Shown here piece by piece: positions 1,686 to 29,923 of a DNA stretch of 37,247 bases. The position numbers were made by a program, and so were the translations under genes. The stretch's first letter is position 1, and each line of letters starts with the position of its first letter. Source of the stretch: Rhodanobacteraceae bacterium (GTDB taxonomy: Bacteria; Pseudomonadota; Gammaproteobacteria; Xanthomonadales; Rhodanobacteraceae). The stretch covers positions 1 to 37,247 of the forward strand of contig DASSFA010000048.1 of NCBI GenBank assembly GCA_035694895.1. The letters run 5' to 3'. The notes beneath the pieces were generated by a model, which searched no databases, was not told the origin of the DNA, and saw only the letters and a program-made list of their open reading frames with translations.

Positions 1686-3262
1686 CAGTCGACGAACGCC
1701 GGCGAATCCAGCGCCTTGCGAAGCGGATCGAGAAGGGCGCCGTAGCGATTTGCATGCGCGGTATCGCGTCGCAACGGCTGGCGAACCTGCGTGGCACTGG
1801 GGGAACGCACATCGCGGCGGGTCTGGTGGAAATCCAGGCAGGCTTGCTCGAACGGCAGCCCGCAGCGGTTCAGCAGAGCGCGAATGCTGCTTTCCGGATC
1901 GGCAATCAGGTCCTCATAGACGTGCGTATAGACGTTCTCGGTGTGCAGCATCTGCCAGTGCGTGGCGGTGCGGTCGAAGGTATGCCAGAACGCGGCAAGA
2001 TCCTCGAACGTACGCTGATAATCATTGTTTTCCAGGTATTGCCGATAGCAGGAAAAGCAGGTTTCCACTGGGTCGCGTCGGCAGACAATGACGTGGGCGC
2101 CGGGCAGCATCGCTCGGATCGCGCCGATGTACATCCAGTTGCCGGGCAGCTTGTCCGTCAACGCAGGCTTGCTGCCCCGCCAATGTGCGGTTCTTTGCAG
2201 GTACGTTTGCCCCAGGCGTTGCCAGTCAGCGGGCTGCGCGTCCGCCGCCCACTGCGGGAACGGCTTGCCCACGCGGTGTGCTTCGGATGCCAGAACGAGC
2301 GGCAGATCGGGCAATTCCCCTGATCCTGCCACCTGGGAGTGCGATGCGAAAATTTGCTCGACCAGCGTCGAACCTGATCGCGGCAGGCCGACGATGAAGA
2401 TCATCCCACGGCCCAGCTCCCGGGCCGCGCCGTGTGGTGGCGGGGTAAACGCCTGCAGAATCAAGTCCATCTGCGCGTCGAACGCCTTCGCGTCCCAGCG
2501 CCGGCTGCGCCGCGCAACCGAGTTGGCATGCTCCAGGGCGGCCAGGGATTCTGCATATCGGCCTTCATCATCCAGCGCTTTGGCGAGAGCGAAACCGATT
2601 GCAACCAGGTCGTGGTCCGTGGCTCGCGAATCGCGCATGGCGCGCCGCATCTGCCCCACGTCCCCTTCGTTCAAGCGCATGGTCTTGAGGGCCGCGAGTC
2701 CCCACCATGCCATTCCGGTCCAGGGTTTACGTTCCAGAACATGTCGGTACGCGGCAATCGCCTCGTCCACCCGGTCTTCCATGCGCAGCATGTCCGCCAA
2801 CAAGGCGCGCGCATCCATATGCGCAGGGTCGAGCGTCACCGCTCGCCGCAGAGCTTCGATCGCCTCCGCGTGGCGCACCGACCGCGTCAACATCACGCCG
2901 AGATTGAACCAGGCCGTGGCGAGGGAGGGTTGCAGTTCGCAGGCGCGACGTAGTGCAGCTATGGCGCCTTCGTAGTCACCGCAGGATCCGAGCACCGCGC
3001 CCAGCGTGTTGTAGTAGAGCGGGTCATCAGGGCGTTGCGCGATGGCGGCCTGCATGATGCGCGCGGCTTCGCCGGGCCTGCCGCGCAGATCGAGCAAGCC
3101 GGCGTGCAGGCGCAGAACTTCCGGATGACGTGGATCGGATTGCAGCAGCGGCGCGATCCGGGTAGCCGCCTCGTCCGGTCGTCCCATTTCCAGTGCCTGT
3201 GCGGTCGCCAGGACGTGCGGGATGGCAGCCTGACTCAGGCCTTGTAATCTCGAACTGCTCAT
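1685..3262 (-). CDS. TPR repeat-containing sulfotransferase family protein
   Basis: 525 aa. Several clear TPR units (e.g. YYNTLGAVLGSCGDYEGAIAALRRACELQP), then GLPRSGSTLVEQ and CRRDPVETCFS sulfotransferase motifs. Confidence 0.85.
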   Translation of the reverse strand: MSSSRLQGLSQAAIPHVLATAQALEMGRPDEAATRIAPLLQSDPRHPEVLRLHAGLLDLRGRPGEAARIMQAAIAQRPDDPLYYNTLGAVLGSCGDYEGAIAALRRACELQPSLATAWFNLGVMLTRSVRHAEAIEALRRAVTLDPAHMDARALLADMLRMEDRVDEAIAAYRHVLERKPWTGMAWWGLAALKTMRLNEGDVGQMRRAMRDSRATDHDLVAIGFALAKALDDEGRYAESLAALEHANSVARRSRRWDAKAFDAQMDLILQAFTPPPHGAARELGRGMIFIVGLPRSGSTLVEQIFASHSQVAGSGELPDLPLVLASEAHRVGKPFPQWAADAQPADWQRLGQTYLQRTAHWRGSKPALTDKLPGNWMYIGAIRAMLPGAHVIVCRRDPVETCFSCYRQYLENNDYQRTFEDLAAFWHTFDRTATHWQMLHTENVYTHVYEDLIADPESSIRALLNRCGLPFEQACLDFHQTRRDVRSPSATQVRQPLRRDTAHANRYGALLDPLRKALDSPAFVD

Positions 3263-3365
3263 GTCGCCATTATCGTCTGGACCGCGAATCCGGAAAGCCG
3301 ATATACCATACCGCCTCGATCACGCGATGCTCCCGGGCGTGGCAACGGCGCAGCCGGCAAAGACA

Positions 3366-4805
3366 ATGCATATTCCCCGAAGCGACAACGAGGCCCAGCG
3401 ATTTTCCCATGCCTTGGAGCTCTGGCGCCGCGGGGACGTGGCGCAAGCCGAAGCCATCCTGCACGAACTGGTCGCGCGGCGGCCCGCCCGCGAGGATTTC
3501 TCCACACTGTTGGCCGAGGTTCTGCGCAACCAGGGCAGGCTGGACACCGCGTCGAGGGTAATCTTCGAATGCTGCAAGGCCGGCGGCTTCGATCCCGATG
3601 TGAGCCTGCGCGGAGCAAAATTCATCCAGCAGTGTCATCGCCACGGATTGGCCGACGAGCTATGCCGCGCGACGATTGCGCGCGGCGCGGTGAGCTCCGA
3701 GATGTGGTTCGTTGCGGGCAATATCGCCCGCGAACTCGGCGACTTCGACCGGGCGCGTACCGACTACCTCGCCGCGCTCGAGGCCGGCGTGGATCTGAAT
3801 TCCTCCATGGTGTTTGGTGCACTCGCCCGGACCCAGCGCTATCGTGATCCGGCGCATCCGGATTTCGCGAAATTCCTCGCGCACTTCGACAATTCCGGAT
3901 TTTCCGTGCGTGCGCGCGCGGCGACCGGCTTCGGGCTGGCAAAGGCCTACGACGATATCGGCGAGTGGCGAACCGCCGCAGGGGTATTGCGCAAGGCGAA
4001 TGCACTGGTGCGCACGGTGCAGTCGTGGGATTCCTCTGGCTGGCATCAATTCGTGGAGGCACGCGCCCGCGCGCGGGTTGCCCGCTTGCGATCCACGATT
4101 GCTCCGGATTTCGTCCCGGTCTTCATCCTGGGATTGCCGCGCACCGGTACCACGCTCACGGCAACACGGTTGGCCAGTCACATCGGTGCGCGCGATCGCG
4201 GTGAACTGCGGGTGTTGCGGTTCGTCGCCGAGGAGCTCATCCGCGGCGGCCATCTCGACAATGTGGGCGCGATCGGGGAGGCGGCACGGTTGTATTGCGC
4301 GCACGCGCGCCAGGACGATGCACCTGCGCGCTATTACATGGACCAGGATCCGCTCAATTTTCGCTACCTGGACCTGATCGAGGCGATGTTCCCGCAGGCG
4401 CAGATCATCCATTGCCGCCGCGATCGGGGTGACACCGCCCTTTCGCTGTGGAGCCAGGATTTCGCCCATCCGGATTGCGCATTCGCCTACGATTTCGATT
4501 CGATCGCCGATTACATGGCCGGGCACGATGAGCTGATGGCGCACTGGCGCCGGACGCTGTCATTGCCGATCCATACGGTGGATTACGAGTTGCTGGTCAC
4601 GGAACCGCAGCTTGTCCTGCGAGAACTTGCGGGGAGTATCGGAGCGCCTGAGCGGACCGCGCCGGAGGCGCAAGTCACGCCGATCAATTCGTCCAGCGTG
4701 TGGCAGGCACGCCAGCCTATCTATACGAGTTCGGTCGGGCGATGGCGCGCTTACCTTCCGTTCGTGCCGGAGCTTGCAAAGTTCGCAACCGGCACCGGCG
4801 GGTAA
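3366..4805 (+). CDS. TPR repeat-containing sulfotransferase family protein
   Basis: Contains GLPRTGTTL and CRRDRGDTALS motifs. The C-terminus (SVWQARQPIYTSSVGRW) is of the same subtype as 150..1685. The track ORF starts at 3261. I prefer the ATG at 3366 (MHIPRSDNEAQRF...), which aligns with paralog N-termini and leaves a 103-bp divergent promoter region. Confidence 0.8.
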   Translation: MHIPRSDNEAQRFSHALELWRRGDVAQAEAILHELVARRPAREDFSTLLAEVLRNQGRLDTASRVIFECCKAGGFDPDVSLRGAKFIQQCHRHGLADELCRATIARGAVSSEMWFVAGNIARELGDFDRARTDYLAALEAGVDLNSSMVFGALARTQRYRDPAHPDFAKFLAHFDNSGFSVRARAATGFGLAKAYDDIGEWRTAAGVLRKANALVRTVQSWDSSGWHQFVEARARARVARLRSTIAPDFVPVFILGLPRTGTTLTATRLASHIGARDRGELRVLRFVAEELIRGGHLDNVGAIGEAARLYCAHARQDDAPARYYMDQDPLNFRYLDLIEAMFPQAQIIHCRRDRGDTALSLWSQDFAHPDCAFAYDFDSIADYMAGHDELMAHWRRTLSLPIHTVDYELLVTEPQLVLRELAGSIGAPERTAPEAQVTPINSSSVWQARQPIYTSSVGRWRAYLPFVPELAKFATGTGG

Positions 4806-16508: not shown

Positions 16509-16537
16509 TTGACACGGTGCAATAGTGCCGCTACAGT
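16509..16537 (+). promoter_or_regulatory. near-consensus sigma-70 promoter for the SAM riboswitch-metB-hom transcript
   Basis: TTGACA (16509-16514), exactly 17 nt, TACAGT (16532-16537). Predicted start about 10 nt before the riboswitch P1 helix. Confidence 0.55.
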
Positions 16538-16547
16538 CATTGCACGC

Positions 16548-16665
16548 AACCCATCAAGACCGGCGGAGGGACAGGCCCTTTGAAGCCGGGGCAACCCGCG
16601 AATCGTTCGCAGGGTGCCAAATCCTGCGGAGATTCCACTCAAGGGGAGTCGCCGGGAGATGGGTC
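16548..16665 (+). promoter_or_regulatory. SAM-I (S-box) riboswitch aptamer
   Basis: AUCAAGACCGGCGGAGGGACAGGCCCUUUGAAGCCGGGGCAACC ... GGUGCCAAAUCCUGC ... GAGAUGGGU matches the S-box conserved core. P1 pairs ACCCAUC (16549-16555) with GAUGGGU (16658-16664). Located upstream of a methionine biosynthesis gene. Confidence 0.85.
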
Positions 16666-19175: not shown

Positions 19176-20792
19176 TCAATCCATCAGCATCGCCGAAGGA
19201 TCGGTGACCGCCTGCTCCACATCCGGCGTGCGCCAGCCGCAGGCCAGTCCCCAGGCGAAGAAGCCCAGCGCGACGATCGCGACGACCAGAAGATCCCAAC
19301 CGAACGGGATGTAGTTGTGCCCGCCGAATTTCTCGCTGCCGCCCCAGGACAGCGCCGCGATCGCCGGAAGGTAGAAGATCATCCAGGCCGCGCCGCGCAG
19401 CTGCGCAGCGATGTGCAGGCGGCCGCGCTTGAGCGTGTAGTACAGCCAGATCGGCAGTGCGACCACCATCAGCAGGATGATCTCGCCGGTGCGCGGCCAG
19501 CGCGCCCAGTACAACAGCTCCGTCGAGAACACGAACGCGCATGCAGCCACGATCATCAGCCCCGGCACGCGTAGCGGGCGATGCAGTTCGGGCGCGGTGC
19601 GCCGCAGTACCGACACGCTGACCGGTCCGGTGAGATAGGAAATGATCGTCGCCACCGAGATCACCTCGGCGAGCGTCGCCCAGCCGCGGAAGAAGAAGAG
19701 GAAGATGAAGGCGACGACGAGGTTCAGCCACATCGCCGGGCGCGGAATGCCCCAGCGCGGATGCACCTTGCCGAACACCGCGGGCAGCGTGCCGTTGCGC
19801 TCCATGCCGTAGATCATGCGCGCAGTGGTGGCGGTGTAGGTGGCGCCTGTGCCGCTCGGGCTGATGAATGCATCCGAGTACAGCAGCAAGGCGAGCCAGT
19901 TGAGATTCAACGCCAGCGCGAGCTCGGCGAACGGCGAGCTGTAGGCGAGCGATGCCCAGCCGCCTTGCGCCAGCTGCGCCGGATCCACCGCGCCGAGGAA
20001 GGCGATCTGCAGCAGCAGGTAGACGACCGTCGCCAGCAGGATCGAGCCGATCACCGCGAACGGCACGCTGCGGCCCGGATTGCGCGCCTCACCGGCGAGG
20101 TTCACCGGGCTCTGGAATCCGTTGAAGCTGAACACGATGCCGCTGATCGCCACCGCGGTCAGCACCGCGGACATGCTGATCGCGTGCGATCCGCCGTGCG
20201 CGCCGATGTGGAAGTTCTCCGGATGGAACGACGTGGCCATCAATGCGATCGCGGTCAGTGCCGGCACGATCAGCTTGTAGAACGTGATCGCCGTGTTGGC
20301 CTTGGCGAACAGCTTCACGCTCCAGAAGTTCAGCAGGAAATACACGACCACAAGCGCCGCGGAGATCGCCAGGCCCGTCGCGCTGAGTTCGCCGTGACCG
20401 CCCGGTGCGCGGTGGAAGAGGTCCTGCGCCCATGCCCACGGCCACGACGACATGTATTGCACGGACGCTTCCGCTTCCACCGGGATCACGGATGCGATCG
20501 CGATCCAGTTGGCCCAGGCCGCGATGAAGCCGACCAGCGTGCCGTGCGAATACTGGCCGTAGCGGACCATGCCGCCGGATTCGGGGAACATCGCGCCGAG
20601 CTCGGCATAGGTGACCGCGATGAACAGGATCACGACGGCGCCGATCACCCATGCCCAGATCGCGCCGGGCCCGGCGAGCTGCGCGGCGCGCCAGGCGCCG
20701 AACAGCCAGCCCGATCCGATGATCGAGCCCAGGCCGGTGAACATCAGCGCAATGGCACCGACGTGTCGGCGGATGGCGAATTCATTTGACAT
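19176..20792 (-). CDS. APC superfamily amino acid permease
   Basis: 538 aa with about 12 hydrophobic segments. The N-terminal signature GLGSIIGSGWLFG...YAELGAMFPESGG is typical of amino acid permeases. Confidence 0.9.
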   Translation of the reverse strand: MSNEFAIRRHVGAIALMFTGLGSIIGSGWLFGAWRAAQLAGPGAIWAWVIGAVVILFIAVTYAELGAMFPESGGMVRYGQYSHGTLVGFIAAWANWIAIASVIPVEAEASVQYMSSWPWAWAQDLFHRAPGGHGELSATGLAISAALVVVYFLLNFWSVKLFAKANTAITFYKLIVPALTAIALMATSFHPENFHIGAHGGSHAISMSAVLTAVAISGIVFSFNGFQSPVNLAGEARNPGRSVPFAVIGSILLATVVYLLLQIAFLGAVDPAQLAQGGWASLAYSSPFAELALALNLNWLALLLYSDAFISPSGTGATYTATTARMIYGMERNGTLPAVFGKVHPRWGIPRPAMWLNLVVAFIFLFFFRGWATLAEVISVATIISYLTGPVSVSVLRRTAPELHRPLRVPGLMIVAACAFVFSTELLYWARWPRTGEIILLMVVALPIWLYYTLKRGRLHIAAQLRGAAWMIFYLPAIAALSWGGSEKFGGHNYIPFGWDLLVVAIVALGFFAWGLACGWRTPDVEQAVTDPSAMLMD

Positions 20793-20880
20793 GGATGACT
20801 CCCCGTGCGTGAACCATCCATGGCGTAAACAGCCGCGGATGATGGCAGATTGCGCGGCGGGAGTCAGCGTGCCATTCGCT

Positions 20881-22215
20881 CTACACCGAGGCGAATGCTT
20901 CGCGCGTCAGGTTGATCGGCTCGCCCCTGGTGCACACCACGTCGTCCTCGATGCGGATGCCGCCGTAGGCGCGGAACGCGTCCACCTTCTTCCAGTTCAC
21001 GTCGCGTGCCGCCGGCTTGCCGCGCAGTTCTTGCAGCAGCATGTCGATGAAATACAGCCCCGGCTCGATCGTGGTGACCATGCCCGGTCGCAGTTCGCGG
21101 GTCAGGCGCAGGTAGGGATGGCCGTGCGGCCTGGCGATGCTGCCGCCGCGCTCGTCGCGCTGGAAGCCCGCGACATCGTGGACCTGGATGCCCAAGAGGT
21201 GGCCCAGGCCGTGCGGGAAGAACGTGCTGGAGATGCCGTTCGCCACCGCCGCTTCCGCGCTGCAGGTGATGAAGCCCTGCTCGTGCATGGCCTGCATCAG
21301 CACGTGGTGCGCGTGGATGTGCAGCTCGGGATAGCTCTGGCCGTCGCGCACCATGGCGCAGAAACCCTGTTGCCCGCGCTCCACTGCATCGATGAGCGCC
21401 TGGAATTCGCGAGCGTCCGGCGCGGCGTAAGTGCGCGTGATGTCCGAGTTGTAGCCGTGGAACTGCCCGCCGGCATCGATCAGGAACGAATGCGCATGCA
21501 CGGGCGGGTTGCGGTCGAAGTGCGTGTAGTGCAGCACCGCGCCGTGGCGGTCCAGCGCGATGATGTTGTCGTAGGGCAACTGGTGCTCGGCCAGGTGCGT
21601 TGCGGCGAGATAGGCGACGTGGATCTCGAATTCGGAGGCGCCGTTGCGGAATGCGGCTTCCGCCGCGGTGTGCCCGCGCGCGCCGATCTTGCTGGCGACG
21701 CGCAGCATGCTGAGTTCGTATTCGGTCTTGAACGAACGCTGCCAGTGCAGGTAGTCCATCAGGGCCTGCGGGTTGTCGGGCGCGTAGCCTTCCACCGCCG
21801 CGCTTGCGTCGCCGACGATCGCGCAACGCGCGGCATCCTTCGGCAGGTGCGTGCGCGCGTCTTCCGGGGTGCGGATGGTGACGATCTCGAAGTGCTCGAC
21901 CCAGTAACCGGCCGGCGCGGCCGGCACCACGTGCCAGTAATCGTGCGGTTGCAGGAAGACCAGCTTCGGTTTGGAACCCGGCGTGAAGACGATCCAGCTT
22001 CCCGGCGCATCCGTCAGGGGGAGCCAGTGCACGAAGTGCGGATTGGCCCGGAACGGGTAGTGCGTGTCGTCGAGGAAGCGTCCGACCGGGCGGCCGGCGG
22101 CGATCACCAGATGCTCGCGCTGTGCGAGCCCGAGCGCGGCTTCGGCGCGGCGCTTGAGCTCGGAAAGATGTGAAGGGTAGAGGCCTGCGAGGTTGTCTTG
22201 CGGCGCGGCGGTCAT
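20881..22215 (-). CDS. pepQ: Xaa-Pro dipeptidase (prolidase)
   Basis: 444 aa. M24B metal-ligand blocks (DAGGQFHGYNSDITRT, HGLGHLLGIQVHD, EPGLYF, GGIRIEDDV). Length matches E. coli PepQ. Confidence 0.9.
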   Translation of the reverse strand: MTAAPQDNLAGLYPSHLSELKRRAEAALGLAQREHLVIAAGRPVGRFLDDTHYPFRANPHFVHWLPLTDAPGSWIVFTPGSKPKLVFLQPHDYWHVVPAAPAGYWVEHFEIVTIRTPEDARTHLPKDAARCAIVGDASAAVEGYAPDNPQALMDYLHWQRSFKTEYELSMLRVASKIGARGHTAAEAAFRNGASEFEIHVAYLAATHLAEHQLPYDNIIALDRHGAVLHYTHFDRNPPVHAHSFLIDAGGQFHGYNSDITRTYAAPDAREFQALIDAVERGQQGFCAMVRDGQSYPELHIHAHHVLMQAMHEQGFITCSAEAAVANGISSTFFPHGLGHLLGIQVHDVAGFQRDERGGSIARPHGHPYLRLTRELRPGMVTTIEPGLYFIDMLLQELRGKPAARDVNWKKVDAFRAYGGIRIEDDVVCTRGEPINLTREAFASV

Positions 22216-22278
22216 GGCGGCAGCATCGATGCGGAAAACGTCATGGTGCCGCGTCGCGCGGCGCAGTGCAAAGCGCGC

Positions 22279-22623
22279 TCAGGCGTCCGATTCATCCAGC
22301 CATTCGTTCAGTGCCGCATGATCCGCTTCCGACAGCGCGATGATGCGTAGCCCGGCCCAATGCTGCCCGGGCACCGCGGCCGGTTCGCTCCACTGCTCGT
22401 GCACGCCGGCTTCCATCAGATGCATGCGGCCATCGCGGTCCGGCAACTGGAAGCGGACCTGGTACAGCGCGTCAGGCGTGAGCATGCGGCGGCCGATCAG
22501 CATCATGCCATTGCGCGAAAGGTTGCCGATGCGGCCCATGTTCTCGCCGGTCAATGCATCAGTGACCTCGATCGGGTCGAGCGCGGGCTTGCGCGTGGCA
22601 CGGCGTTGTTCCGGATCGTTCAT
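22279..22623 (-). CDS. single-domain PilZ protein (predicted c-di-GMP receptor), copy 1
   Basis: 114 aa. RxxxR (RRATR) and (D/N)xSxxG (NLSRNG) motifs with canonical spacing. The ATG overlaps the stop of the upstream large gene (ATGA at 22620-22623). The 317-aa track ORF is an out-of-context extension. Confidence 0.85.
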   Translation of the reverse strand: MNDPEQRRATRKPALDPIEVTDALTGENMGRIGNLSRNGMMLIGRRMLTPDALYQVRFQLPDRDGRMHLMEAGVHEQWSEPAAVPGQHWAGLRIIALSEADHAALNEWLDESDA

Positions 22624-24905
22624 TTCGTGAAGACCCCGCCTGGTTGGGGAGCACGGCCAACGAGTTCCCGGCCGAGGATGGCGGCGTTTGCCGTTTCCTG
22701 GCCCCTGCGGTCGGGAATGACGGCATGCGGACGGTGCAGGCCCGCGACCAGCGTATTCCAGGCGCGGTCCATCATCGATTCTGACTGCTGCGGCAGCAGT
22801 CGCGCCTGCCCGAGCACCATCAGGCGCGCCACCTGTTCCAGCCGGCGCTCCGGCGCGGCGACGCCGCGCGCGCTGACGAACAGGCAGCGGTTGGTGGCGA
22901 GCGTGTACCAGGCGAGCTTGCGTTGCACGCATTGGCCCTGCTGGTTGACGACGAACTCGAACCAGGTGCCGAACGGCAGCGAACGCAGCCGGGTCAAGGC
23001 GCGTTGTTCCTCCGCGCTGAGCGGCAGTTGCGGCGCATCGTGTTCGGCTTTCGGATCCTCGCTCTCGCCCAGGCGCTGGCGTGTCTTCAGGCGCACCGCC
23101 AGTTCGGTCTGGCTCGGCGCGCCCTGGCGTGCATCCGCCGCCGGCTGCAGATCCAGCACGCGCTGTGCAAGCTGCGACGCTTCCGGCCCCTGCAGCCCGA
23201 CCTGCGCCAGGCCGGCTTCGAGTTCCGCGCACAGCCGCGCGTTGTCGCGCTGTTCGGGCTCGCGCAGCAGCTCGTCTGCCGCGGCGAGGCGGCGATGGAA
23301 GGCCTCGCTATCCTCGCCGTGGCGCAGGATCGCCAGGGCCAGTGCATCGCACCAGGCCTGCTCCAGCAACGCCCGGATCAGCGGAGTGGTCTTGCGTCCG
23401 GCCAGGCGTTCGCCGATCGCGGCGGAAGCCCGCGCGCGCGCCTGCTCCAGCCGGTCGCGCCCTTGCGCGGCTTCCAGTTGGCGGCGCTCGGCGATTTCCG
23501 CGCGCCGGCGCAGTCCGCTGACGTGAGACTCCAGGTCGTCCACCAGCTTCTCGAGCAGCGACTGGTCGCCGGTGAATTCGTTCAGCACGCGATCCACCAC
23601 GCGTTGAAGCTTTTTGGCCAGCCCCTCGTCCACCTCGCCATCGCCCGCATCGAGCCACAGATTGGCGGTCTCGGCCACGGAGTTCAGCAGTCGTCGCGCG
23701 GGATGCGCGCGGCGGGTGAAGAAACTGCTGTCGGCCAGCGCCACCCGCAGCAGCGGAATCTGCAGGTGGGTCAGCATCCGCTGGGCGATGCCACCGCTGC
23801 GGGTTTCATCGAGCAGGCGGTCGAACAGCAGGGACACAAGCTCCAGCACGTCGCGATGTTCAGCCGCGAATTGCGGAACCTCTCCATCCGGGGCGAAGCG
23901 GTGCAATCCGGCGATGATGTCCTGACGCAGATCCTGGATGGTGCGCGGTACCTCGCGCCCGCCCAGATGCACCGGCGTCGATGCGCGGCCCTGCAAGGCG
24001 CCGAGGACCGACTGCAGGTCTTCGGTGGAGGCGATGTATCCGCCGCCGGTTCCTGCGGGGACCTGCGACGGGGTCGGGCGATGCTGGTCCAGCAGTTGGC
24101 GCAGCTTGCCGAGCGCTGCTTCCGCCGAGGCCGCCGTAGCGGCAGGCCTCGGCGCCGGAGCGGACCGGGCTCCGGCGCCGGGTCGCGCCGATTCCGCTTC
24201 GGTCCTCCTGGCTTTGGTTTCCTGGCTGCGCCGCGGCAGGAATGCGCGGAGATTGGGCAGGATGCCGCGTTGTGCGAGATGGTCGTTGAGGCCGCCATAA
24301 ATGGACTCGGCCGCCCCCATCACCCGGCGGTCGCAAAGCCGGTAAAACAATATCCGATGCTCGCGCGGCAGGCCCATGCACGATCCGATGTCGCGGAAGG
24401 CGTGGGCCAGCGCGTGCGGACCCAGCGGCAGCGCCTCCGCGTCCAGCAACGGCGAGGCGATCAGCACGCCATAGCGGTGGCCCAGTTCGAACAGGATCGG
24501 GTTGACGCGCAGTTCGGTGCGGGTGGCGATGTCATCCAGCGCCACCGCTTCGTCGAACTCATCATGGTCCACCAGCGTCAGATCGAAGCGCGTGCGGGGC
24601 GCGGCGATGCTGCGCAGGCCGAGCGCGGCTAGCCGTCGCTCGAGCGAGATCAGCAGTTGCGGCGCGGCATCGGCGCGATTGCGCTTGATCTCGCGCAGGC
24701 TTTCGAACGCGGTCTGCTGTTCGGCGTTGTTGCGCGACTGTTCGGCCAGCTTGAACAACTGCTGCTCGAACTCGGTCAGGCCGGCGCGCAGCAGGGGTTC
24801 CACGCGCGCACCGCACTCGGCGAGCTGCTCTTCCAGCAGCGTGCGCACGCGTGGCGGCAGCTCGATGCGCTCGGCCAGCTTCTGCGGTAAGCGTTCGGTT
24901 TTCAT
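22620..24905 (-). CDS. DUF1631-like large helical protein, copy 1
   Basis: 761 aa. The N-terminal pattern LP.RVR.LL...L......LFKLAEQSRNNAEQQTAFESLREIKRNR and the C-terminal LPFGTWFEF....G..VQRKLAWY......LFVSARG fit my memory of the DUF1631 family. Not verified by HMM. Confidence 0.7.
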   Translation of the reverse strand: MKTERLPQKLAERIELPPRVRTLLEEQLAECGARVEPLLRAGLTEFEQQLFKLAEQSRNNAEQQTAFESLREIKRNRADAAPQLLISLERRLAALGLRSIAAPRTRFDLTLVDHDEFDEAVALDDIATRTELRVNPILFELGHRYGVLIASPLLDAEALPLGPHALAHAFRDIGSCMGLPREHRILFYRLCDRRVMGAAESIYGGLNDHLAQRGILPNLRAFLPRRSQETKARRTEAESARPGAGARSAPAPRPAATAASAEAALGKLRQLLDQHRPTPSQVPAGTGGGYIASTEDLQSVLGALQGRASTPVHLGGREVPRTIQDLRQDIIAGLHRFAPDGEVPQFAAEHRDVLELVSLLFDRLLDETRSGGIAQRMLTHLQIPLLRVALADSSFFTRRAHPARRLLNSVAETANLWLDAGDGEVDEGLAKKLQRVVDRVLNEFTGDQSLLEKLVDDLESHVSGLRRRAEIAERRQLEAAQGRDRLEQARARASAAIGERLAGRKTTPLIRALLEQAWCDALALAILRHGEDSEAFHRRLAAADELLREPEQRDNARLCAELEAGLAQVGLQGPEASQLAQRVLDLQPAADARQGAPSQTELAVRLKTRQRLGESEDPKAEHDAPQLPLSAEEQRALTRLRSLPFGTWFEFVVNQQGQCVQRKLAWYTLATNRCLFVSARGVAAPERRLEQVARLMVLGQARLLPQQSESMMDRAWNTLVAGLHRPHAVIPDRRGQETANAAILGRELVGRAPQPGGVFTK

Positions 24906-24986
24906 GCAGCCCCCTGACGGATCCGCGCAGGGCCCGAATCCGCAGTGTCATTCTAAGCCCGTGCGCAGGCCGCGCGCGACTTCGGG

Positions 24987-25343
24987 CTAGAGGATCTTCA
25001 GGGCATCGCCATCGCCCAGCCAGGCGTTCAGCGCGGCGGCATCGTCGTCTGAAAGCGAGACGATGCGCAGGCCGGTCCAGTATTGCCCGGGTACCGCGGC
25101 GGGTTCGCCCCACATCTCGTGCAGGCCGGCCTCGATGACGCAGGACGCGCCTTGCGGGTCGGGCAGCTGGAAGCGGGTCTGGTACAGAGCGCCGTCCCCG
25201 AGTTTGCGGCGGCCGATCAACATCATTCCGTCGCGCGACAGATTGCCTATCCGGCCCAGGCTTTCGCCGCTCAAGGCATCCATCACCTCGATCGGTTCGG
25301 AAACGCGCTTGCGCCTGGCGCGACGTTGCTCGGGTGCGTTCAT
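24987..25343 (-). CDS. single-domain PilZ protein (predicted c-di-GMP receptor), copy 2
   Basis: 118 aa with RRARR and NLSRDG motifs. 77 of 114 positions are identical to copy 1 in an ungapped manual alignment. ATGA overlap with the upstream large gene (25340-25343). Confidence 0.85.
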   Translation of the reverse strand: MNAPEQRRARRKRVSEPIEVMDALSGESLGRIGNLSRDGMMLIGRRKLGDGALYQTRFQLPDPQGASCVIEAGLHEMWGEPAAVPGQYWTGLRIVSLSDDDAAALNAWLGDGDALKIL

Positions 25344-27496
25344 GCCCGCTCGACCTCGGCTTTGCCGAACTGCCGCAGGCTGGCGACGGTCAGATGCCAG
25401 GCGCGGTCAATCATGGATGCTTCCTGATGCGGCAACAGACGCGCACGTCCGGCCGCCATCTGCCGCGCCAGCTGGTCGAGCGTGCGTTCCCCCGTGGCCG
25501 CACCGCGCGGGTTGACCATCACGCATTGCCCGCTCTCGCCGTGCCAGATCAGCTTGCGCCGCACGCGCAGCCCCTGATCGGTGGTGCATTCGAACCATGT
25601 GTTGAACGGCAGTGCCCGCAATCGGCCGAGATTGCGCTGCTCCTCGTCGGTGAGTGGCGATGCGACGCGGCCGGTGCCGTCCTGATCGCCCAGACGCTGG
25701 CGGCCTTTCAGCTTCACCAGCAGTTCGGTCTGGGTCGCCTGCTCCCCGGCGCCGGGCGCCTCCCGATCCAGCACCCGATGCGCAAGCTGGCTGGCCTCTT
25801 CGGCGTGCAGGCCGACTTGCAGCAGGCCCTGCTCCAGTTCGCCGAGTAGACGCGCCTCCTCGCGCTCGCCGCGTTCGCCCACCAGTTCGGTGGCGATGCC
25901 GAGGGTGCGCGTGAACGCCTCGCTGCCTTCGCCGTGGCGCAGGATCGCCAGCGCCAGCGCATCGGTCCACGCCTGTTCCAGCAGCGCGCGGATCAAGCCG
26001 GCGGGCTTGCGTTCGGCGACCAGGTTTCCGATCGCGGCGGCAGCCTGGGCCCGCGCCAATTCCAGTTTCTCCCTTCCCTGCGCCGCATCGCACTGCCGGC
26101 GTTCGGCCACCTCGGCGCGTCGGCGCAGGGCGTTGACATGGCTTTCCAGTTCGGTCGCCTGTTGTTCGAACAACGCGGGATCGCCGTTGAAATTGGCCAG
26201 CGTGTATTCCACGGTCTGGCGCAGCTTGTCGAGCAACGCGTTGTCCGGCTCACCCTCGCTGCCGTCGATCCATAGATCGGCGGTTTCGGCCACGGCGTTG
26301 AGCAGGCGCCGCGCCGGGTGCGTACCGCGCTGAAAGATACTGCTGTCCGCGAGGGCCGTGCGCAGCCATGGGACCTGCAGACGCGACAGCAGGCGTTGCG
26401 CGGCACCGCCGCCGCGGGTGTCGTCGATCAGCCGTTCGAACCACAGCGACACCAGGTCGAATACATCGCGTTGCTCGATCGCCAGCCGCATGCTCGTCGC
26501 GTTTGGCGTCAGGCGGCGCAATTCCAGGAGCAAATCCTGATGCAGATTCCGCATCGAATTCTGCACGCCGCGTGCGTCCGGCGGCGCGGCCGTCTGAGCC
26601 CGCTGCTGCAAGGCCGCGAGCGCGGCCTGTACCGATTCCGCCGATGCGGACTGCGCATCGACAGGTTCGGTTCCTTCGAGCTTCAACAGCTCCCGTCTCC
26701 GCGCCAGCAGGCTCCGCAGCGGCGTAAGAGCCTCCTCTCCGGCAGCAGCTTCGCCCGCCTTGCCCGGACCGGCGGATCTGTCCGGCCCGCGCCGCGTGCG
26801 CGGCGCATTCCCGCGGCGCGGCAGATACGGGCGCAGCGACGAAAAAATACCCTGCGCGATCAGGCGCTGGTTCAGCATCGCATAGGCATCGTCCACTGCG
26901 CCCAGCAGCGGCGCATCCAGCAGCCGGTACCAGGAAATGCGGTGCTCCCGCTCAAGCCCGGCTTCGCGCGCGATCTCGCCCAGGCCGCGCAGCAGCGCGC
27001 GCGGGCCCAGCGCCAGTTCCTCGGCTTCGAACGGCGATCGTGCCGCGAGCGCGCCATACCGGTAACCCAGCTCGAACAGCTGGCGCGCCGCGCGGATTTC
27101 CGCGCGCGTGGCGATGTCGTCCAGCAGGACTGTCTCCTCGAACTCGTTGTCGTCGATCAGGCTGAGGCCACCCTCCAGCGATCCTGCATGCCAGGCCGCG
27201 GTTGCGGTCCGATCGAATGCGGCCAGCTTGCGTTCGAAGGTCCACCGGAACACCTGCATGATCTCGGTGTCCAGCTGCTTGGCTTTCTGCATGGCGGAGA
27301 GCGTGGCCTGCTCTTCCGCGCCGCTGCGCGGGCGCGATTCGCTCCGCTTTGCGAGCTGATGCCGGAATGCCAGCAGGCTGCCATGCAGCAGGGGTTCCAC
27401 TTGGACGCCCAGTTCCGCCAACTGCCCAGCCAGCAACTCGCGCACGCGCGCCGGCAGATCGGTGCGCGCGGCGATGCTGGAAGGCGTTTCGGGCAT
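25340..27496 (-). CDS. DUF1631-like large helical protein, copy 2
   Basis: Paralog of 22620..24905 with the same N- and C-terminal patterns (LPARVRELLAGQLAE...; LPFNTWFECTTDQGLRVRRKLIWHG....VMVNPRG) but much more diverged. I prefer the ATG at 27496; the track uses GTG at 27511. Confidence 0.7.
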   Translation of the reverse strand: MPETPSSIAARTDLPARVRELLAGQLAELGVQVEPLLHGSLLAFRHQLAKRSESRPRSGAEEQATLSAMQKAKQLDTEIMQVFRWTFERKLAAFDRTATAAWHAGSLEGGLSLIDDNEFEETVLLDDIATRAEIRAARQLFELGYRYGALAARSPFEAEELALGPRALLRGLGEIAREAGLEREHRISWYRLLDAPLLGAVDDAYAMLNQRLIAQGIFSSLRPYLPRRGNAPRTRRGPDRSAGPGKAGEAAAGEEALTPLRSLLARRRELLKLEGTEPVDAQSASAESVQAALAALQQRAQTAAPPDARGVQNSMRNLHQDLLLELRRLTPNATSMRLAIEQRDVFDLVSLWFERLIDDTRGGGAAQRLLSRLQVPWLRTALADSSIFQRGTHPARRLLNAVAETADLWIDGSEGEPDNALLDKLRQTVEYTLANFNGDPALFEQQATELESHVNALRRRAEVAERRQCDAAQGREKLELARAQAAAAIGNLVAERKPAGLIRALLEQAWTDALALAILRHGEGSEAFTRTLGIATELVGERGEREEARLLGELEQGLLQVGLHAEEASQLAHRVLDREAPGAGEQATQTELLVKLKGRQRLGDQDGTGRVASPLTDEEQRNLGRLRALPFNTWFECTTDQGLRVRRKLIWHGESGQCVMVNPRGAATGERTLDQLARQMAAGRARLLPHQEASMIDRAWHLTVASLRQFGKAEVERA

Positions 27497-27538
27497 TGCG
27501 GTTCCCGGCACGGCGGACGTGCGGTGATTCTAGTCCAG

Positions 27539-29356
27539 TCAGAGCCCGACGTCCGGGCGCCAGGCAAGCTCGATCCAGCCCGATCTCCCCGGTGTGTTGT
27601 AGCCGCTGATCAGCGAATACGTGCGATCGGCCAGATTCTCAGCGCGCAGGTGCACTTGCCAGGCGGGCGAGAGCACCACGTTGAGGCGCGCGTTGATCAA
27701 TGCGTACCCGCCGAGCGGGCCGTTGAAATCCGGTCGCGGGCCTTCGGCGTACAACTCGAGGCCGGCATCCACGCGCGCATTGAATTGCCGTGCCAGCAGC
27801 AGGTCGCCCTTGCGGGAGGCGCGCCGCAGCAGGTGTTCGCCCGTTTGCGGGTCGCGCGCGTTCTGCCAGGTCGCATTGCCATGGAACGCCCAGCCATCGT
27901 GCCGCCAGTCCGTCTGCAACTCGATCCCGTCGATCCGTGCCTGCGCGGTGTTCTCGGCCTGGAACAGCGGCCCGGTGAAATCAATCAGGTCACGGATATC
28001 GGTGCGATAGGCGGCGAGCTTGAACGACAGCGATGCAGTGGGCGTCCATTCCGCGCCCAGCTCGCTGCTGTGCGAACGCTCCGGCCGAAGTGCGGGATTG
28101 CCTGCGAAGTAGCCGCCGTAACCGGGCGAGAATTGCTCGTTCAAGCTCGGCGCGCGGAAGCCCTGGCCGAAGCTCGCGGTGATGCGCAGGCTCGGCAGCA
28201 CGCGGTAGCCTGCGGCCGCGGAGCCGGTAGTCGCGCCACCGAACACGCTGTTGTGATCGTGGCGCGCGGCCAGTTCCCAATCGAATGCTTGCAGGTGCCC
28301 GTTCCAGCCGGCGAAAGCGGCGGTGTTGTCGCGGCTCTGTCCGAACGAATCGCCTGCGCCGGAGCTGTCCACGTTTTCACCGCGCTCGTGCACGCGCTCC
28401 ACGCCGGCGGTCAGCGACTGGTTCGGCGCGAGCGTGAAGATGTTCAGCCAGGTTGCGCTCTGCCGGCGCGAGCGGAACAGTTCGAAGTAGTCCGGCGTGT
28501 TCAGGTCATCGCGCGCGCTGCCGATGCTGAGGCGCTGGTACCAGCGCGGGGTAATGTCTCCCGCCAGCGCGGCGCCGAGGTCCTGCTCGATGGTGTGCGA
28601 AACGCCCTGGTCGAATTCGTTCACCGAATCGCTGTAAAGCGCATTCGCCGAAAGCGTCTGGGTGCCCAGCTTGATGTCGCCGGACGCGGCGAGATTGCGG
28701 TTGCGCAGGCCGTCGTCGTCCGGGTTGTAGCCGAAGCCTGTCGGGTTCTCCGCGGAAAATCCGCGCACGTGGCGGATCCCTGCCTGCACGCTGAATCCGC
28801 CGTGCCCGCCGCGCTGGCCGATGCCGGCGCTGGCCGAGGCATCGTCGTAGCTGCCGTATTGCACGGCCGCATCCGGGCCGGTCAACCTGCGCGTGAAGAT
28901 CTGGATGACGCCGCCGATCGCATCCGAACCCCAGTACGCCGCGCGCGGGCCGCGCACGATCTCGATGCGCTGGATCGCGTCCAGCGGCAGCAGCGAGAAA
29001 TCCACGCCTCCGGTTCCGGTCGAGGCGATGCGCACGCCATCCACCAGCACCAGCACGTGATTGGAATTGGTGCCGCGCAGGAACAGCGCGGTCTGTTCGC
29101 CGGGTCCGCCGCTGCGTGCCAGGTCCACGCCGGCCTGCGTGCGCAGTACGTCGTAGAGATCGGCGGCGCCGCTGGCCTCGATCTCCGCCCGCGTGATCAC
29201 CGTGACATCGGCGAGCGAGGCGTCCACCGTCTGCGCCATCCGCGTGGCGGTGACCTCGACGGTGGGTTCCGTGGTCGGGGCTTGCTGCGTGTCCTGGGCC
29301 CGCACGCAAAGACTCACCGCGCCAAGCGCGGCAAACAACAGGAAAGCGTTTTTCAT
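27539..29356 (-). CDS. btuB: TonB-dependent vitamin B12 receptor
   Basis: Signal peptide MKNAFLLFAALGAVSLCVRAQD, TonB box region TVEVTATR, plug motif ALFLRGTNSNHVLVLVDGVRI, and a C-terminal beta-barrel ending in LAWRP....L. Preceded by a cobalamin riboswitch. ATG at 29356 with GGAGAAAAG upstream. Confidence 0.9.
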   Translation of the reverse strand: MKNAFLLFAALGAVSLCVRAQDTQQAPTTEPTVEVTATRMAQTVDASLADVTVITRAEIEASGAADLYDVLRTQAGVDLARSGGPGEQTALFLRGTNSNHVLVLVDGVRIASTGTGGVDFSLLPLDAIQRIEIVRGPRAAYWGSDAIGGVIQIFTRRLTGPDAAVQYGSYDDASASAGIGQRGGHGGFSVQAGIRHVRGFSAENPTGFGYNPDDDGLRNRNLAASGDIKLGTQTLSANALYSDSVNEFDQGVSHTIEQDLGAALAGDITPRWYQRLSIGSARDDLNTPDYFELFRSRRQSATWLNIFTLAPNQSLTAGVERVHERGENVDSSGAGDSFGQSRDNTAAFAGWNGHLQAFDWELAARHDHNSVFGGATTGSAAAGYRVLPSLRITASFGQGFRAPSLNEQFSPGYGGYFAGNPALRPERSHSSELGAEWTPTASLSFKLAAYRTDIRDLIDFTGPLFQAENTAQARIDGIELQTDWRHDGWAFHGNATWQNARDPQTGEHLLRRASRKGDLLLARQFNARVDAGLELYAEGPRPDFNGPLGGYALINARLNVVLSPAWQVHLRAENLADRTYSLISGYNTPGRSGWIELAWRPDVGL

Positions 29357-29361
29357 TCTTT

Positions 29362-29397
29362 TCTCCGTTCGCACACCCGCGTGAAGCGCAACGGAGA
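29362..29397 (-). promoter_or_regulatory. SD-sequestering hairpin of the btuB riboswitch expression platform
   Basis: On the minus strand, UCUCCGUU (plus-strand 29390-29397) pairs perfectly with AACGGAGA (29362-29369). The latter contains the btuB Shine-Dalgarno. The loop is 20 nt. Confidence 0.6.
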
Positions 29398-29484
29398 GAG
29401 GGGGCAGGGCACGGCGTGGCGGCCGTTCCCGACCGCCGCCCACCGCGACGCCAAGGATCGCGGCGCTTGCGAACGATTCGCAAT

Positions 29485-29665
29485 GCCGCGGCTGCAGGCC
29501 GGTCTCCGGGCTCGCGAGCGGTGTTCCTTCCGGAACACTCACCGGATCGCCTTCCCGCGCTGATCGCGCAGTGGCTCTTGTGATCCGTTCGACTCGCCTA
29601 CCGTTGCGGGGGCAGCTCCGGCTTCGAACCGGCTTCCCGTTTCACCCAAACATCAAATCGACGCG
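29485..29665 (-). promoter_or_regulatory. cobalamin (adenosylcobalamin) riboswitch
   Basis: The minus strand reads GGUGAAACGGGAAGCCGGUUCGAAGCCGGAGCUGCCCCCGCAACGGUA ... GCCACUG ... and the B12 box AGCCCGGAGACCGGCCUGC (plus coordinates 29494-29512). These are the classic conserved blocks, upstream of btuB. Confidence 0.85.
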
Positions 29666-29923
29666 AATGGGCACCTGCAAGCCGCGCAGTGTAAGTGGGG
29701 AGTCCAACCAAACACAACAGAGCAGGCCATGGATGGCCGTGTCGAAGTGAGCTTTCCGGCGCCGTCGCATGGCGGCGAGCATCGCAGCGCCAGGCGGGAG
29801 CAAGGCGCGACTGTTTGAGCACAAGGACGTGCGAGTTCGCGCCGGCCCGCTTGGCGCGAGAAGCGCAGCGGAGTCGAGCCAACCGGACGTTGGCGAGACC
29901 GTCATGCCCGGCGCCATTGGCTT

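What the first reader, a model, noticed from the sequence alone, without database searches (positions are those of the whole stretch)
22279..27511. Tandemly duplicated, translationally coupled DUF1631-like + PilZ two-gene module
Seen in the sequence:
- Two consecutive pairs lie on the minus strand. Each pair is a large helical protein (718-723 aa and 761 aa) followed by a 114-118 aa protein.
- In both pairs the stop of the large gene overlaps the ATG of the small one as ATGA (25340-25343 and 22620-22623).
- Both small proteins carry intact RxxxR (RRATR / RRARR) and (D/N)xSxxG (NLSRNG / NLSRDG) motifs. They are 77/114 identical in my manual alignment.
- The large proteins keep only shared N-terminal (LP.RVR.LL..QLAE) and C-terminal (LPF.TWFE......RRKL.W......V..RG) blocks and are far more diverged.

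Established knowledge: those two PilZ motifs are the c-di-GMP binding signature. DUF1631 has no assigned function and, from memory, is sometimes misannotated as thymidine phosphorylase.

Inference: the small PilZ protein is a dedicated c-di-GMP adaptor for its cognate large partner. The old duplication with asymmetric divergence would then have created two insulated output channels. I know of no described function for such a pair.
Basis: partly seen in the sequence, partly recalled or inferred. Interest (0 to 1): 0.72.

Follow-up and report, generated by a model that had tools for sequence, protein, structure and literature searches.

The report
Coupled DUF1631–PilZ gene pair, duplicated
Two neighbouring copies of a conserved two-gene unit, each pairing a large protein of unknown function (DUF1631/PacR family) with a small c-di-GMP-sensing PilZ protein whose start codon overlaps the large gene's stop, point to a direct, testable c-di-GMP input for this uncharacterised family.

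Summary
Four minus-strand genes form two DUF1631 + PilZ pairs, each joined by an ATGA stop/start overlap. Both PilZ proteins keep the RxxxR and (D/N)xSxxG motifs and model as PilZ barrels.

One correction: the large proteins are 49% identical over their full length, not only at the ends.

The pairing is not a local oddity.
- In 60 of 60 Xanthomonadales junctions, a PilZ gene follows DUF1631; 50 of 62 junctions overall are ATGA overlaps.
- In a reciprocal metagenome survey of a second PilZ subtype, 73 of 76 loci had DUF1631 upstream, and 71 of those were ATGA overlaps.
- Pseudomonas, Chromatiales and Methylococcales DUF1631 genes mostly lack the partner.

The duplication is young and lineage-restricted. 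L2–S2 is the ancestral copy and L1–S1 the inserted one. All four genes are under purifying selection. The large-versus-small rate difference is the family norm, so "asymmetric divergence" shows nothing special.

A distant homolog, Xanthomonas PacR, has published c-di-GMP-like phenotypes. I found no paper that links DUF1631 to PilZ.

Best reading: a two-subunit c-di-GMP effector, a stand-alone PilZ receptor wired to a new target family. Ligand binding, complex formation and "insulated channels" remain untested. Moderate interest.

The parts
25340..27511 (-). L1: DUF1631/PacR-family protein, the derived (inserted) paralog. It is 723 aa from the GTG at 27511; the likely start is the ATG at 27496 (718 aa).
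   Evidence: ORF. Pfam PF07793 E = 6e-118, profile positions 3-741/741. NCBIfam PacR 151 bits, below the 1200 cutoff. Long-branch clade together with L001, L002, L003 and L011. dN/dS 0.16-0.24.
24987..25343 (-). S1: stand-alone PilZ protein of 118 aa, partner of L1. Its C-terminal LKIL tail is specific to the S1 clade.
   Evidence: ORF. PilZ 22.4 bits against gathering score 22.5. RxxxR and NLSRDG motifs. dN/dS 0.09-0.18.
25340..25343 (-). ATGA overlap: the L1 stop (TGA) overlaps the S1 start (ATG).
   Evidence: Sequence read. The same junction occurs in 121 of 135 homologous junctions.
22620..24905 (-). L2: DUF1631/PacR-family protein of 761 aa, the ancestral ortholog. It is syntenic with the single-copy genes of other Rhodanobacteraceae.
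   Evidence: Pfam PF07793 E = 7e-150. Groups with the singletons L004-L010. Synteny btuB-DUF1631-PilZ-pepQ. AF2 model pLDDT 81.5: helical with a small beta domain at 648-703, and no PDB fold match.
22279..22623 (-). S2: stand-alone PilZ protein of 114 aa, partner of L2.
   Evidence: PilZ 21.2 bits. Motifs RRATR and NLSRNG. AF2 pLDDT 87: six strands plus a C-terminal helix, with a disordered N-terminal arm at 1-13. The Foldseek top ~30 hits are all PilZ domains.
22620..22623 (-). ATGA overlap: the L2 stop overlaps the S2 start.
   Evidence: Sequence read.
27527..27532 (-). TAGAAT (-10-like box) in the 27-nt gap between the btuB stop and L1.
   Evidence: An exact TAGAAT lies upstream of DUF1631 in 44 of 60 loci, against about 0.006 expected per 140 nt.
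24950..24955 (-). TAGAAT (-10-like box) in the 81-nt gap between S1 and L2.

Best explanation
Each pair is proposed to be a two-subunit c-di-GMP effector.

The small protein is a stand-alone PilZ receptor. It has a flexible N-terminal RxxxR arm and a beta-barrel carrying (D/N)xSxxG. Its translation is coupled to that of a large, cytoplasmic, mostly helical DUF1631/PacR-family protein, so the two are made together.

In the proposed mechanism, c-di-GMP binds the PilZ subunit and changes how it contacts the DUF1631 subunit. That switches the DUF1631 protein's still unknown output. By analogy with the distant homolog PacR, the output probably feeds the switch between motility and EPS/biofilm.

The window holds two units because of a lineage-restricted tandem duplication. 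L2-S2 is the ancestral copy, and L1-S1 was inserted between btuB and L2 and evolves somewhat faster. Both units are maintained by selection, and each has its own TAGAAT promoter-like box.

Shown here: gene structure, family assignment, conservation of the coupling, duplication history and purifying selection.

Inferred, not shown: c-di-GMP binding, the physical complex, and the nature of the output.
For: - Family and fold: DUF1631 full-length hits. The PilZ motifs are conserved in all 64 partner sequences. The AF2 PilZ model matches c-di-GMP-bound PilZ structures, including Alg44 (4rt0), 4xrn and MapZ-CheR1 (5xly).
- Coupling: a PilZ gene lies directly downstream in 60 of 60 Xanthomonadales junctions, and 50 of 62 junctions overall are ATGA. 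In the reciprocal survey from a different PilZ subtype, 73 of 76 loci have DUF1631 upstream, and 71 of those 73 are ATGA.
- Unit behaviour: the DUF1631 and PilZ trees are congruent. There are two independent tandem duplications of the whole unit, one in the window clade and one in L106.
- Fusions: rare natural fusions join DUF1631 parts to this PilZ type. P0315 is the N-domain plus PilZ, and P0308 is a shortened DUF1631 plus PilZ.
- Co-evolution: mirror-tree r = 0.96, with partial r = 0.88 given the neighbouring PepQ; permutation p <= 0.0005.
- Selection: all four genes have dN/dS of 0.05-0.25.
- Phenotype link: the DUF1631 homolog PacR (XC_3388) shows hypermotility, low EPS, altered biofilm and deregulated GGDEF genes (PMC9543026).
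Against: - There is no direct evidence of c-di-GMP binding or of a PilZ-DUF1631 contact, and no multimer prediction was available.
- Both PilZ proteins fall just under Pfam's gathering score and have no sequence-level PDB relative.
- Most DUF1631 genes outside Xanthomonadales (17 of 19 loci) have no adjacent PilZ.
- Xanthomonas PacR has no recognised PilZ neighbour. The family can therefore work without this partner, and PacR phenotypes may not transfer: the window proteins score only 151-231 bits against the 1200-bit PacR cutoff.
- The DUF1631 fold gives no functional clue.
- Mirror-tree correlations can be inflated by shared rate variation.
Confidence: 0.55

Rival explanations
1. The two genes share a pathway but do not form a complex. 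The PilZ protein is co-expressed with DUF1631 but acts on another target, such as the flagellar motor, type IV pili or chemotaxis enzymes. DUF1631 works in parallel or upstream, and adjacency only ensures co-regulation.
For: - Known stand-alone PilZ proteins act on targets that are not encoded beside them. MapZ-CheR1 is among the structural hits.
- DUF1631 functions without an adjacent PilZ in Pseudomonas and probably in Xanthomonas.
Against: - The ATGA coupling is preserved in 121 of 135 junctions across two deep lineages.
- The pair has been duplicated as a unit twice.
- Fusion proteins exist.
- The partial mirror-tree correlation is strong.
- All of these are more than simple co-regulation usually produces.
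Confidence: 0.2
2. The module is a homeostasis or feedback device. DUF1631 scaffolds or regulates c-di-GMP-making or -breaking enzymes, and the PilZ subunit reports the c-di-GMP level back to it, so the pair tunes the pool rather than executing an output.
For: - Deleting PacR changes the expression of many GGDEF genes, and the authors propose a role in c-di-GMP homeostasis.
- DUF1631 is a large helical protein with long helices and disordered linkers, which is scaffold-like.
Against: - No GGDEF, EAL or HD-GYP gene is in the window or conserved beside the module; the neighbours are btuB, pepQ and a permease.
- The PacR effect is transcriptional and could be indirect.
- PacR is only a distant homolog.
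Confidence: 0.15
3. On the duplication: the two modules are largely redundant, or differ only in expression. S and L proteins cross-react between modules, so they are not two insulated signalling channels.
For: - S1 and S2 are 68% identical with identical ligand motifs.
- L1 and L2 are 49% identical with all core motifs shared; 210 columns are invariant and identical in both clades, against 38 that are fixed differently.
- The duplication is recent and lineage-restricted.
- Each copy has its own TAGAAT box, so they could simply differ in regulation.
Against: - Both copies have been kept under purifying selection across at least five genomes, with dS up to about 0.9.
- Residues fixed differently between the clades concentrate in the L N-terminal helices and C-terminal beta domain, and the S1 clade has its own C-terminal tail.
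- An independent duplication in L106 suggests a recurring benefit.
Confidence: 0.35

Closest known systems
PacR (XC_3388), the DUF1631 protein of Xanthomonas campestris pv. campestris (Luneau et al. 2022, PMC9543026)
   Same: - Same Pfam family (DUF1631) with full-length homology.
- A cytoplasmic, mostly helical protein with no informative structural match.
- Its phenotypes point to c-di-GMP-type lifestyle control: hypermotility, low EPS, altered biofilm and GGDEF genes up.
   Different: - The window proteins are distant homologs, scoring 151 and 231 bits against the 1200-bit NCBIfam PacR cutoff.
- The paper never mentions PilZ, and the four known Xcc PilZ genes are not next to XC_3388.
- The proteins here are fixed to a translationally coupled PilZ partner.
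Stand-alone PilZ adaptor proteins (e.g. MapZ/PA4608 with CheR1, PDB 5xly; PA0012; the Xanthomonas PilZ-FimX-PilB system)
   Same: - A single-domain PilZ of about 110-120 aa with RxxxR and (D/N)xSxxG motifs.
- The predicted fold matches these structures.
- The proposed logic is the same: c-di-GMP-loaded PilZ binds and modulates a separate partner protein.
   Different: - The presumed partner is encoded immediately upstream with an ATGA overlap and co-duplicates with the PilZ gene.
- The partner family has no known activity.
- From memory, MapZ, HapZ and FlgZ are not translationally coupled to their targets.
- Interaction is unproven here.
PilZ domains fused to their effector (Alg44, BcsA, YcgR/MotI)
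   Same: - The top structural matches are the Alg44 PilZ domain with c-di-GMP (4rt0) and MotI (5vx6).
- Rare fusions of DUF1631 parts to this PilZ type exist (P0315, P0308).
   Different: - As a rule the PilZ here is a separate polypeptide.
- The DUF1631 C-terminal beta domain is not a PilZ or PilZN domain: hhalign probability is 0.3%.

Membership tests
PilZ domain (PF07238) | N-terminal RxxxR c-di-GMP-binding motif | tested here: met
   R7...R11 is present in S1 (RRARR) and S2 (RRATR). R7 and R11 are invariant in 48- and 64-sequence alignments of partner proteins.
PilZ domain (PF07238) | (D/N)xSxxG motif on the barrel | tested here: met
   NLSRDG (S1) and NLSRNG (S2). N34, L35, S36 and G39 are invariant across partners.
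PilZ domain (PF07238) | Six-stranded beta-barrel followed by a C-terminal helix | tested here: met
   The AF2 model of S2 has pLDDT 87, strands 19-97 and a helix at 99-113. The top ~30 Foldseek PDB hits are all PilZ domains, with TM 0.5-0.68.
PilZ domain (PF07238) | Score at or above Pfam's gathering threshold | tested here: inconclusive
   22.4 and 21.2 bits against 22.5, so marginally below. Orthologous partners pass: L061 scores 33.7 bits, and many carry a precomputed PF07238 assignment. There is no sequence-level PDB hit.
PilZ domain (PF07238) | Binds c-di-GMP | not testable with these tools
   Needs DRaCALA, ITC or MST, with RxxxR mutants as controls.
DUF1631 (PF07793) | Full-length match to the family HMM above the gathering score | tested here: met
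   L1 scores 395.8 bits (profile 3-741/741) and L2 501.2 bits (profile 2-739/741), against a cutoff of 33.7.
PacR family (NCBIfam NF058594, Xanthomonas-type) | Whole-protein score at or above the curated cutoff of 1200 bits | tested here: not met
   L1 scores 151 bits and L2 231 bits. None of the 17 other PilZ-coupled or solo DUF1631 proteins tested exceeded 336 bits. They are homologs, not PacR orthologs.
Stand-alone PilZ adaptor plus target systems (MapZ-CheR1 type) | PilZ is a separate single-domain protein | tested here: met
   114 and 118 aa with only the PilZ domain. In the representative library the family is almost entirely 105-125 aa.
Stand-alone PilZ adaptor plus target systems (MapZ-CheR1 type) | c-di-GMP-dependent physical binding to a partner protein | not testable with these tools
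   Only indirect support is available: the conserved ATGA coupling, unit duplication, fusions and the mirror-tree result.

The most novel reading that the evidence does not exclude
The PilZ-coupled DUF1631 proteins are the output subunit of a previously unrecognised class of c-di-GMP effector complex. This complex sets the motile/sessile programme in Rhodanobacteraceae and other Xanthomonadales. In this reading the PilZ subunit is the missing direct c-di-GMP input for the whole DUF1631/PacR family, and solo members such as Xanthomonas PacR and the Pseudomonas nadC-ampD-linked gene use an unlinked PilZ or another receptor. Recurrent unit duplication would then generate parallel channels with private receptor-target specificity.
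Probability: 0.3. Interest if true: 0.7.

Novelty: new variant of a known kind. Interest (0 to 1): 0.5.

Why it matters
DUF1631 is a widespread gammaproteobacterial family with no known mechanism. Its one studied member, PacR, behaves like a master regulator of motility, EPS, biofilm and virulence, and a c-di-GMP link has been suspected but not explained.

A strictly conserved, translationally coupled PilZ partner in a large branch of the family gives a concrete, cheap-to-test hypothesis for how c-di-GMP reaches these proteins. Testing needs binding assays, two-hybrid experiments and deletions. Cultured hosts are available, for example Mizugakiibacter sediminis skMP5 (L013).

The finding would also add a new target class to the list of stand-alone PilZ adaptors. 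The naturally duplicated modules offer a ready system for studying receptor-target specificity.

One practical point: these PilZ proteins sit just under Pfam's threshold, so domain-count censuses of c-di-GMP receptors can miss them.

Tried and rejected
- **Split-YcgR idea.** I tested whether the DUF1631 C-terminal beta domain (about 643-724) is PilZ- or PilZN-like. hhalign against the PilZ partner profile gives probability 0.3%. Foldseek shows only weak Tudor/SH3-like similarity at E >= 0.4. Rejected.
- **Functional clue from the DUF1631 fold.** The AF2 model is good (pLDDT 81.5), but there is no PDB match at E < 0.4. A profile search of PDB sequences and per-domain Pfam scans at E <= 10 also gave nothing.
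- **Sigma-54 promoter.** The conserved TGGC...TTGCA upstream block has element starts 18 nt apart instead of 11. Rejected.
- **Simple promoter/terminator scan.** The sigma-70 and terminator scan of 20700-29800 found no promoter and no terminator within the cluster, so operon boundaries remain inferred.
- **Divergent PilZ in distant taxa.** The small ORFs downstream of DUF1631 in Methylococcales and Chromatiaceae are FKBP isomerases. In Pseudomonas the downstream neighbours are AmpD and a SpoU methylase.
- **Reaching the Xanthomonas PacR locus.** No locus protein reached the PacR cutoff. The paper's supplements are not held. So whether XC_3388 has an unannotated PilZ neighbour could not be checked directly. 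A review lists four Xcc PilZ genes, none adjacent.
- **'Asymmetric divergence' as a post-duplication signal.** The large:small rate ratio is the same in orthologs. Rejected.
Full report
**What is in the sequence**

On the minus strand the window encodes four consecutive genes:
- L1, 25340..27511: 723 aa from a GTG. An ATG at 27496 gives 718 aa and is the more plausible start.
- S1, 24987..25343: 118 aa.
- L2, 22620..24905: 761 aa.
- S2, 22279..22623: 114 aa.

Reading the junctions shows ATGA stop/start overlaps at 25340-25343 and 22620-22623.

Pfam assigns both large proteins to DUF1631 over the whole model (E = 6e-118 and 7e-150). Both small proteins hit PilZ at 22.4 and 21.2 bits, just below the 22.5-bit gathering score.

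S1 and S2 are 77/114 identical, and both have R7xxxR11 and N-L-S-R-(D/N)-G.

L1 and L2 align end to end at 49% identity. They do not share only terminal blocks.

**Is the small protein really a PilZ receptor?**

An AlphaFold2 model of S2 was built on 48 homologs (pLDDT 87). It has a disordered N-terminal arm (residues 1-13, carrying RxxxR), six strands and a C-terminal helix.

The top ~30 Foldseek hits in the PDB are all PilZ domains. Several were solved with c-di-GMP bound. They include Alg44 (4rt0), MotI (5vx6), 4xrn, PP4397, MapZ-CheR1 (5xly) and PA0012.

Both ligand motifs are invariant in all 64 partner sequences collected, including the most distant Pseudomonas-type ones.

There is no sequence-level PDB relative, so this is a divergent PilZ subfamily. 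c-di-GMP binding itself is inferred, not shown.

**The pairing is ancient and conserved; the duplication is not**

I scanned one genome per species with a DUF1631 alignment, which returned 80 loci.
- In every Xanthomonadales locus where the 3' end of the DUF1631 gene is present (60 junctions), a PilZ-like ORF follows directly. Of 62 junctions overall, 50 are ATGA overlaps.
- Two Pseudomonas-type loci (L061, L063) have the PilZ 9 nt downstream. The L061 PilZ passes Pfam at 33.7 bits.
- The other 17 loci have no PilZ there. These come from Pseudomonas, Thiopseudomonas, Chromatiales, Methylococcales and Sedimenticola. Their downstream neighbours are AmpD, a SpoU methylase or FKBP, and Pseudomonas shows the order nadC / DUF1631 / ampD.

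A reciprocal metagenome scan started from a different PilZ subtype ("IxEFRRxRRRK...GNLSETGM"). It found DUF1631 directly upstream in 73 of 76 loci that had at least 300 nt of upstream sequence, and 71 of those 73 junctions are ATGA.

Across both surveys, 121 of 135 junctions carry the same 4-nt overlap.

**History of the duplication**

Tandem modules occur only in the window and in L001, L002, L003 and L011, which form one Rhodanobacteraceae subclade.
- Trees place L2 and S2 with the single-copy genes of the sister genomes L004-L010 and L046. L1 and S1 form a separate, longer-branch clade.
- The DUF1631 and PilZ topologies agree, so the two genes were copied together.
- Synteny shows the ancestral order btuB-like TonB receptor / DUF1631 / PilZ / pepQ / permease. 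L1-S1 was inserted between the receptor and L2.
- All four genes are under purifying selection, with dN/dS of 0.05-0.25 across pairs and dS up to about 0.9.
- The large protein evolves about twice as fast as the PilZ, both between orthologs and between paralogs. The "asymmetric divergence" therefore says nothing specific about the duplication.
- A second, independent tandem duplication of the whole unit exists in metagenome locus L106. Both of its PilZ copies are of the other subtype.

**Further indirect evidence that the two proteins work together**

- The exhaustive representative search with the PilZ partner profile found about 520 clusters at E <= 1e-10, almost all 105-125 aa long.
- It also found rare fusions. 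P0315 joins the DUF1631 N-terminal domain (HMM positions 17-250) directly to this PilZ type. P0308 joins a shortened DUF1631 (HMM positions 179-261 plus 653-736) to it.
- Pairwise distances of DUF1631 and PilZ across 45 loci correlate at r = 0.96. The partial correlation is 0.88 after controlling for the adjacent PepQ, with permutation p <= 0.0005. Mirror-tree statistics can be inflated by shared rate variation, so this is supportive only.
- Residues fixed differently between the L1 and L2 clades concentrate in the N-terminal helices (41-106) and the C-terminal beta domain (646-700). S1-type partners carry a clade-specific C-terminal LKIL tail. This fits some specialisation but does not show insulation.

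**What the large protein is**

The AF2 model of L2 (pLDDT 81.5, pTM 0.57) is mostly helical and has four parts:
- an N-terminal helical domain;
- a disordered linker at 220-256;
- a helical core that includes a 54-residue helix;
- a small beta domain at 648-703.

It has no PDB fold match at E < 0.4 and no profile hit in PDB sequences. Its beta domain is not PilZ-like.

The only functional data for the family come from X. campestris. There, XC_3388 (DUF1631, renamed PacR) was characterised by deletion:
- the mutant shows hypermotility, low EPS, disturbed biofilm and reduced virulence, with higher expression of GGDEF genes;
- the authors suspected c-di-GMP-mediated regulation but had no direct evidence;
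- the paper does not mention PilZ (PMC9543026).

The window proteins are only distant homologs of PacR. They score 151 and 231 bits against NCBIfam's 1200-bit PacR cutoff. None of 17 other DUF1631 proteins tested came close.

The four known Xcc PilZ genes are not adjacent to XC_3388. PacR phenotypes are therefore a lead for the family, not a property shown for these genes.

Full-text searches found no paper that holds both PacR and PilZ, and only five papers mention DUF1631 at all.

**Regulatory context**

- An exact TAGAAT hexamer lies 30-80 nt upstream of the DUF1631 start in 44 of 60 Xanthomonadales loci, against about 0.006 expected per locus.
- In most Rhodanobacteraceae it sits within a conserved block, ...ATGGCGCTTT-N9-CTTGCATAGAATC.
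- It is present upstream of both L1 (27527-27532) and L2 (24950-24955). Each module therefore probably has its own -10 element.
- The block is not a sigma-54 promoter, because the spacing is wrong.
- The simple consensus scan found no promoter or terminator in the cluster.
- The TonB receptor upstream is preceded by a cobalamin riboswitch. No GGDEF or EAL gene is nearby.

**Verdict**

The most likely mechanism is a two-subunit c-di-GMP effector. A stand-alone PilZ receptor is made together with a DUF1631/PacR-family protein and acts on it (confidence about 0.55).

The rivals are:
- shared pathway without a complex (0.2);
- a homeostasis or feedback role (0.15);
- for the duplication specifically, redundancy or regulatory divergence rather than insulated channels (0.35).

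This is a new variant of a known kind, the stand-alone PilZ adaptor. Its target family is novel and functionally unknown, and the genetic coupling is unusually rigid. Interest is moderate. It would not astonish a c-di-GMP specialist, but it makes the function of DUF1631/PacR directly testable.

Noticed in passing
window 27527-27532 and 24950-24955 (minus strand); L001-L057 upstream of DUF1631: An exact TAGAAT box lies upstream of the DUF1631 gene in 44 of 60 loci, against about 0.006 expected per 140 nt. In most Rhodanobacteraceae it sits inside a conserved block, ccATGGCgcttt-N9-gCTTGCATAGAATC. It is present before both L1 and L2. It resembles sigma-54 elements, but the spacing is 18 nt rather than 11.
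   Followed up: partly
window 29480-29694 (-): A cobalamin riboswitch (Rfam RF00174, 114.6 bits) lies ahead of the TonB-dependent receptor at 27539..~29350, which is therefore BtuB-like. The listed ORF start at 29542 is over-extended into the riboswitch. L1 starts only 27-42 nt after this receptor's stop.
   Followed up: partly
window 16548-16665 (+): A SAM riboswitch (RF00162, 83.8 bits) lies ahead of a Cys/Met-metabolism PLP enzyme, followed by homoserine dehydrogenase. The ORF start listed at 16525 overlaps the riboswitch and is probably too far upstream.
   Followed up: no
window 150-4805: Three adjacent paralogous genes each encode N-terminal TPR repeats plus a C-terminal sulfotransferase domain. 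Two are on the minus strand, and one is divergent on the plus strand.
   Followed up: no
L106:1-3371: An independent tandem duplication of the DUF1631-PilZ unit occurs in a different lineage. Both PilZ copies are of the 'GN(L/I)SETGML' subtype. The upstream unit is cut by the contig end.
   Followed up: partly
proteins P0315 and P0308 (representative library): Natural fusions exist. P0315 is the DUF1631 N-terminal domain plus linker plus a partner-type PilZ (369 aa). P0308 is a shortened DUF1631 (part of the N-domain plus the C-terminal beta domain) plus PilZ (301 aa). These could be real deletion-fusions or assembly or gene-calling artefacts.
   Followed up: partly
L064, L067, L068, L072 (Pseudomonas spp.): The solo DUF1631 gene sits between a divergent nadC and ampD. 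By gene order and from memory this is PA4523 in P. aeruginosa PAO1. A 2026 study reports PA4523 as a 'hypothetical protein' whose transcription peaks at biofilm dispersal (PMC13128677). The equation PA4523 = DUF1631 was not verified with the tools.
   Followed up: partly
(annotation issue): The S1/S2-clade PilZ proteins fall just under Pfam's gathering score, and their close homologs carry no precomputed Pfam domain. Sister-clade partners do pass, so PilZ censuses based on Pfam would undercount these. Precomputed annotations also list newer sub-domain families (PF26670, PF26671, PF26672) on DUF1631 proteins; these are absent from the local Pfam copy.
   Followed up: no
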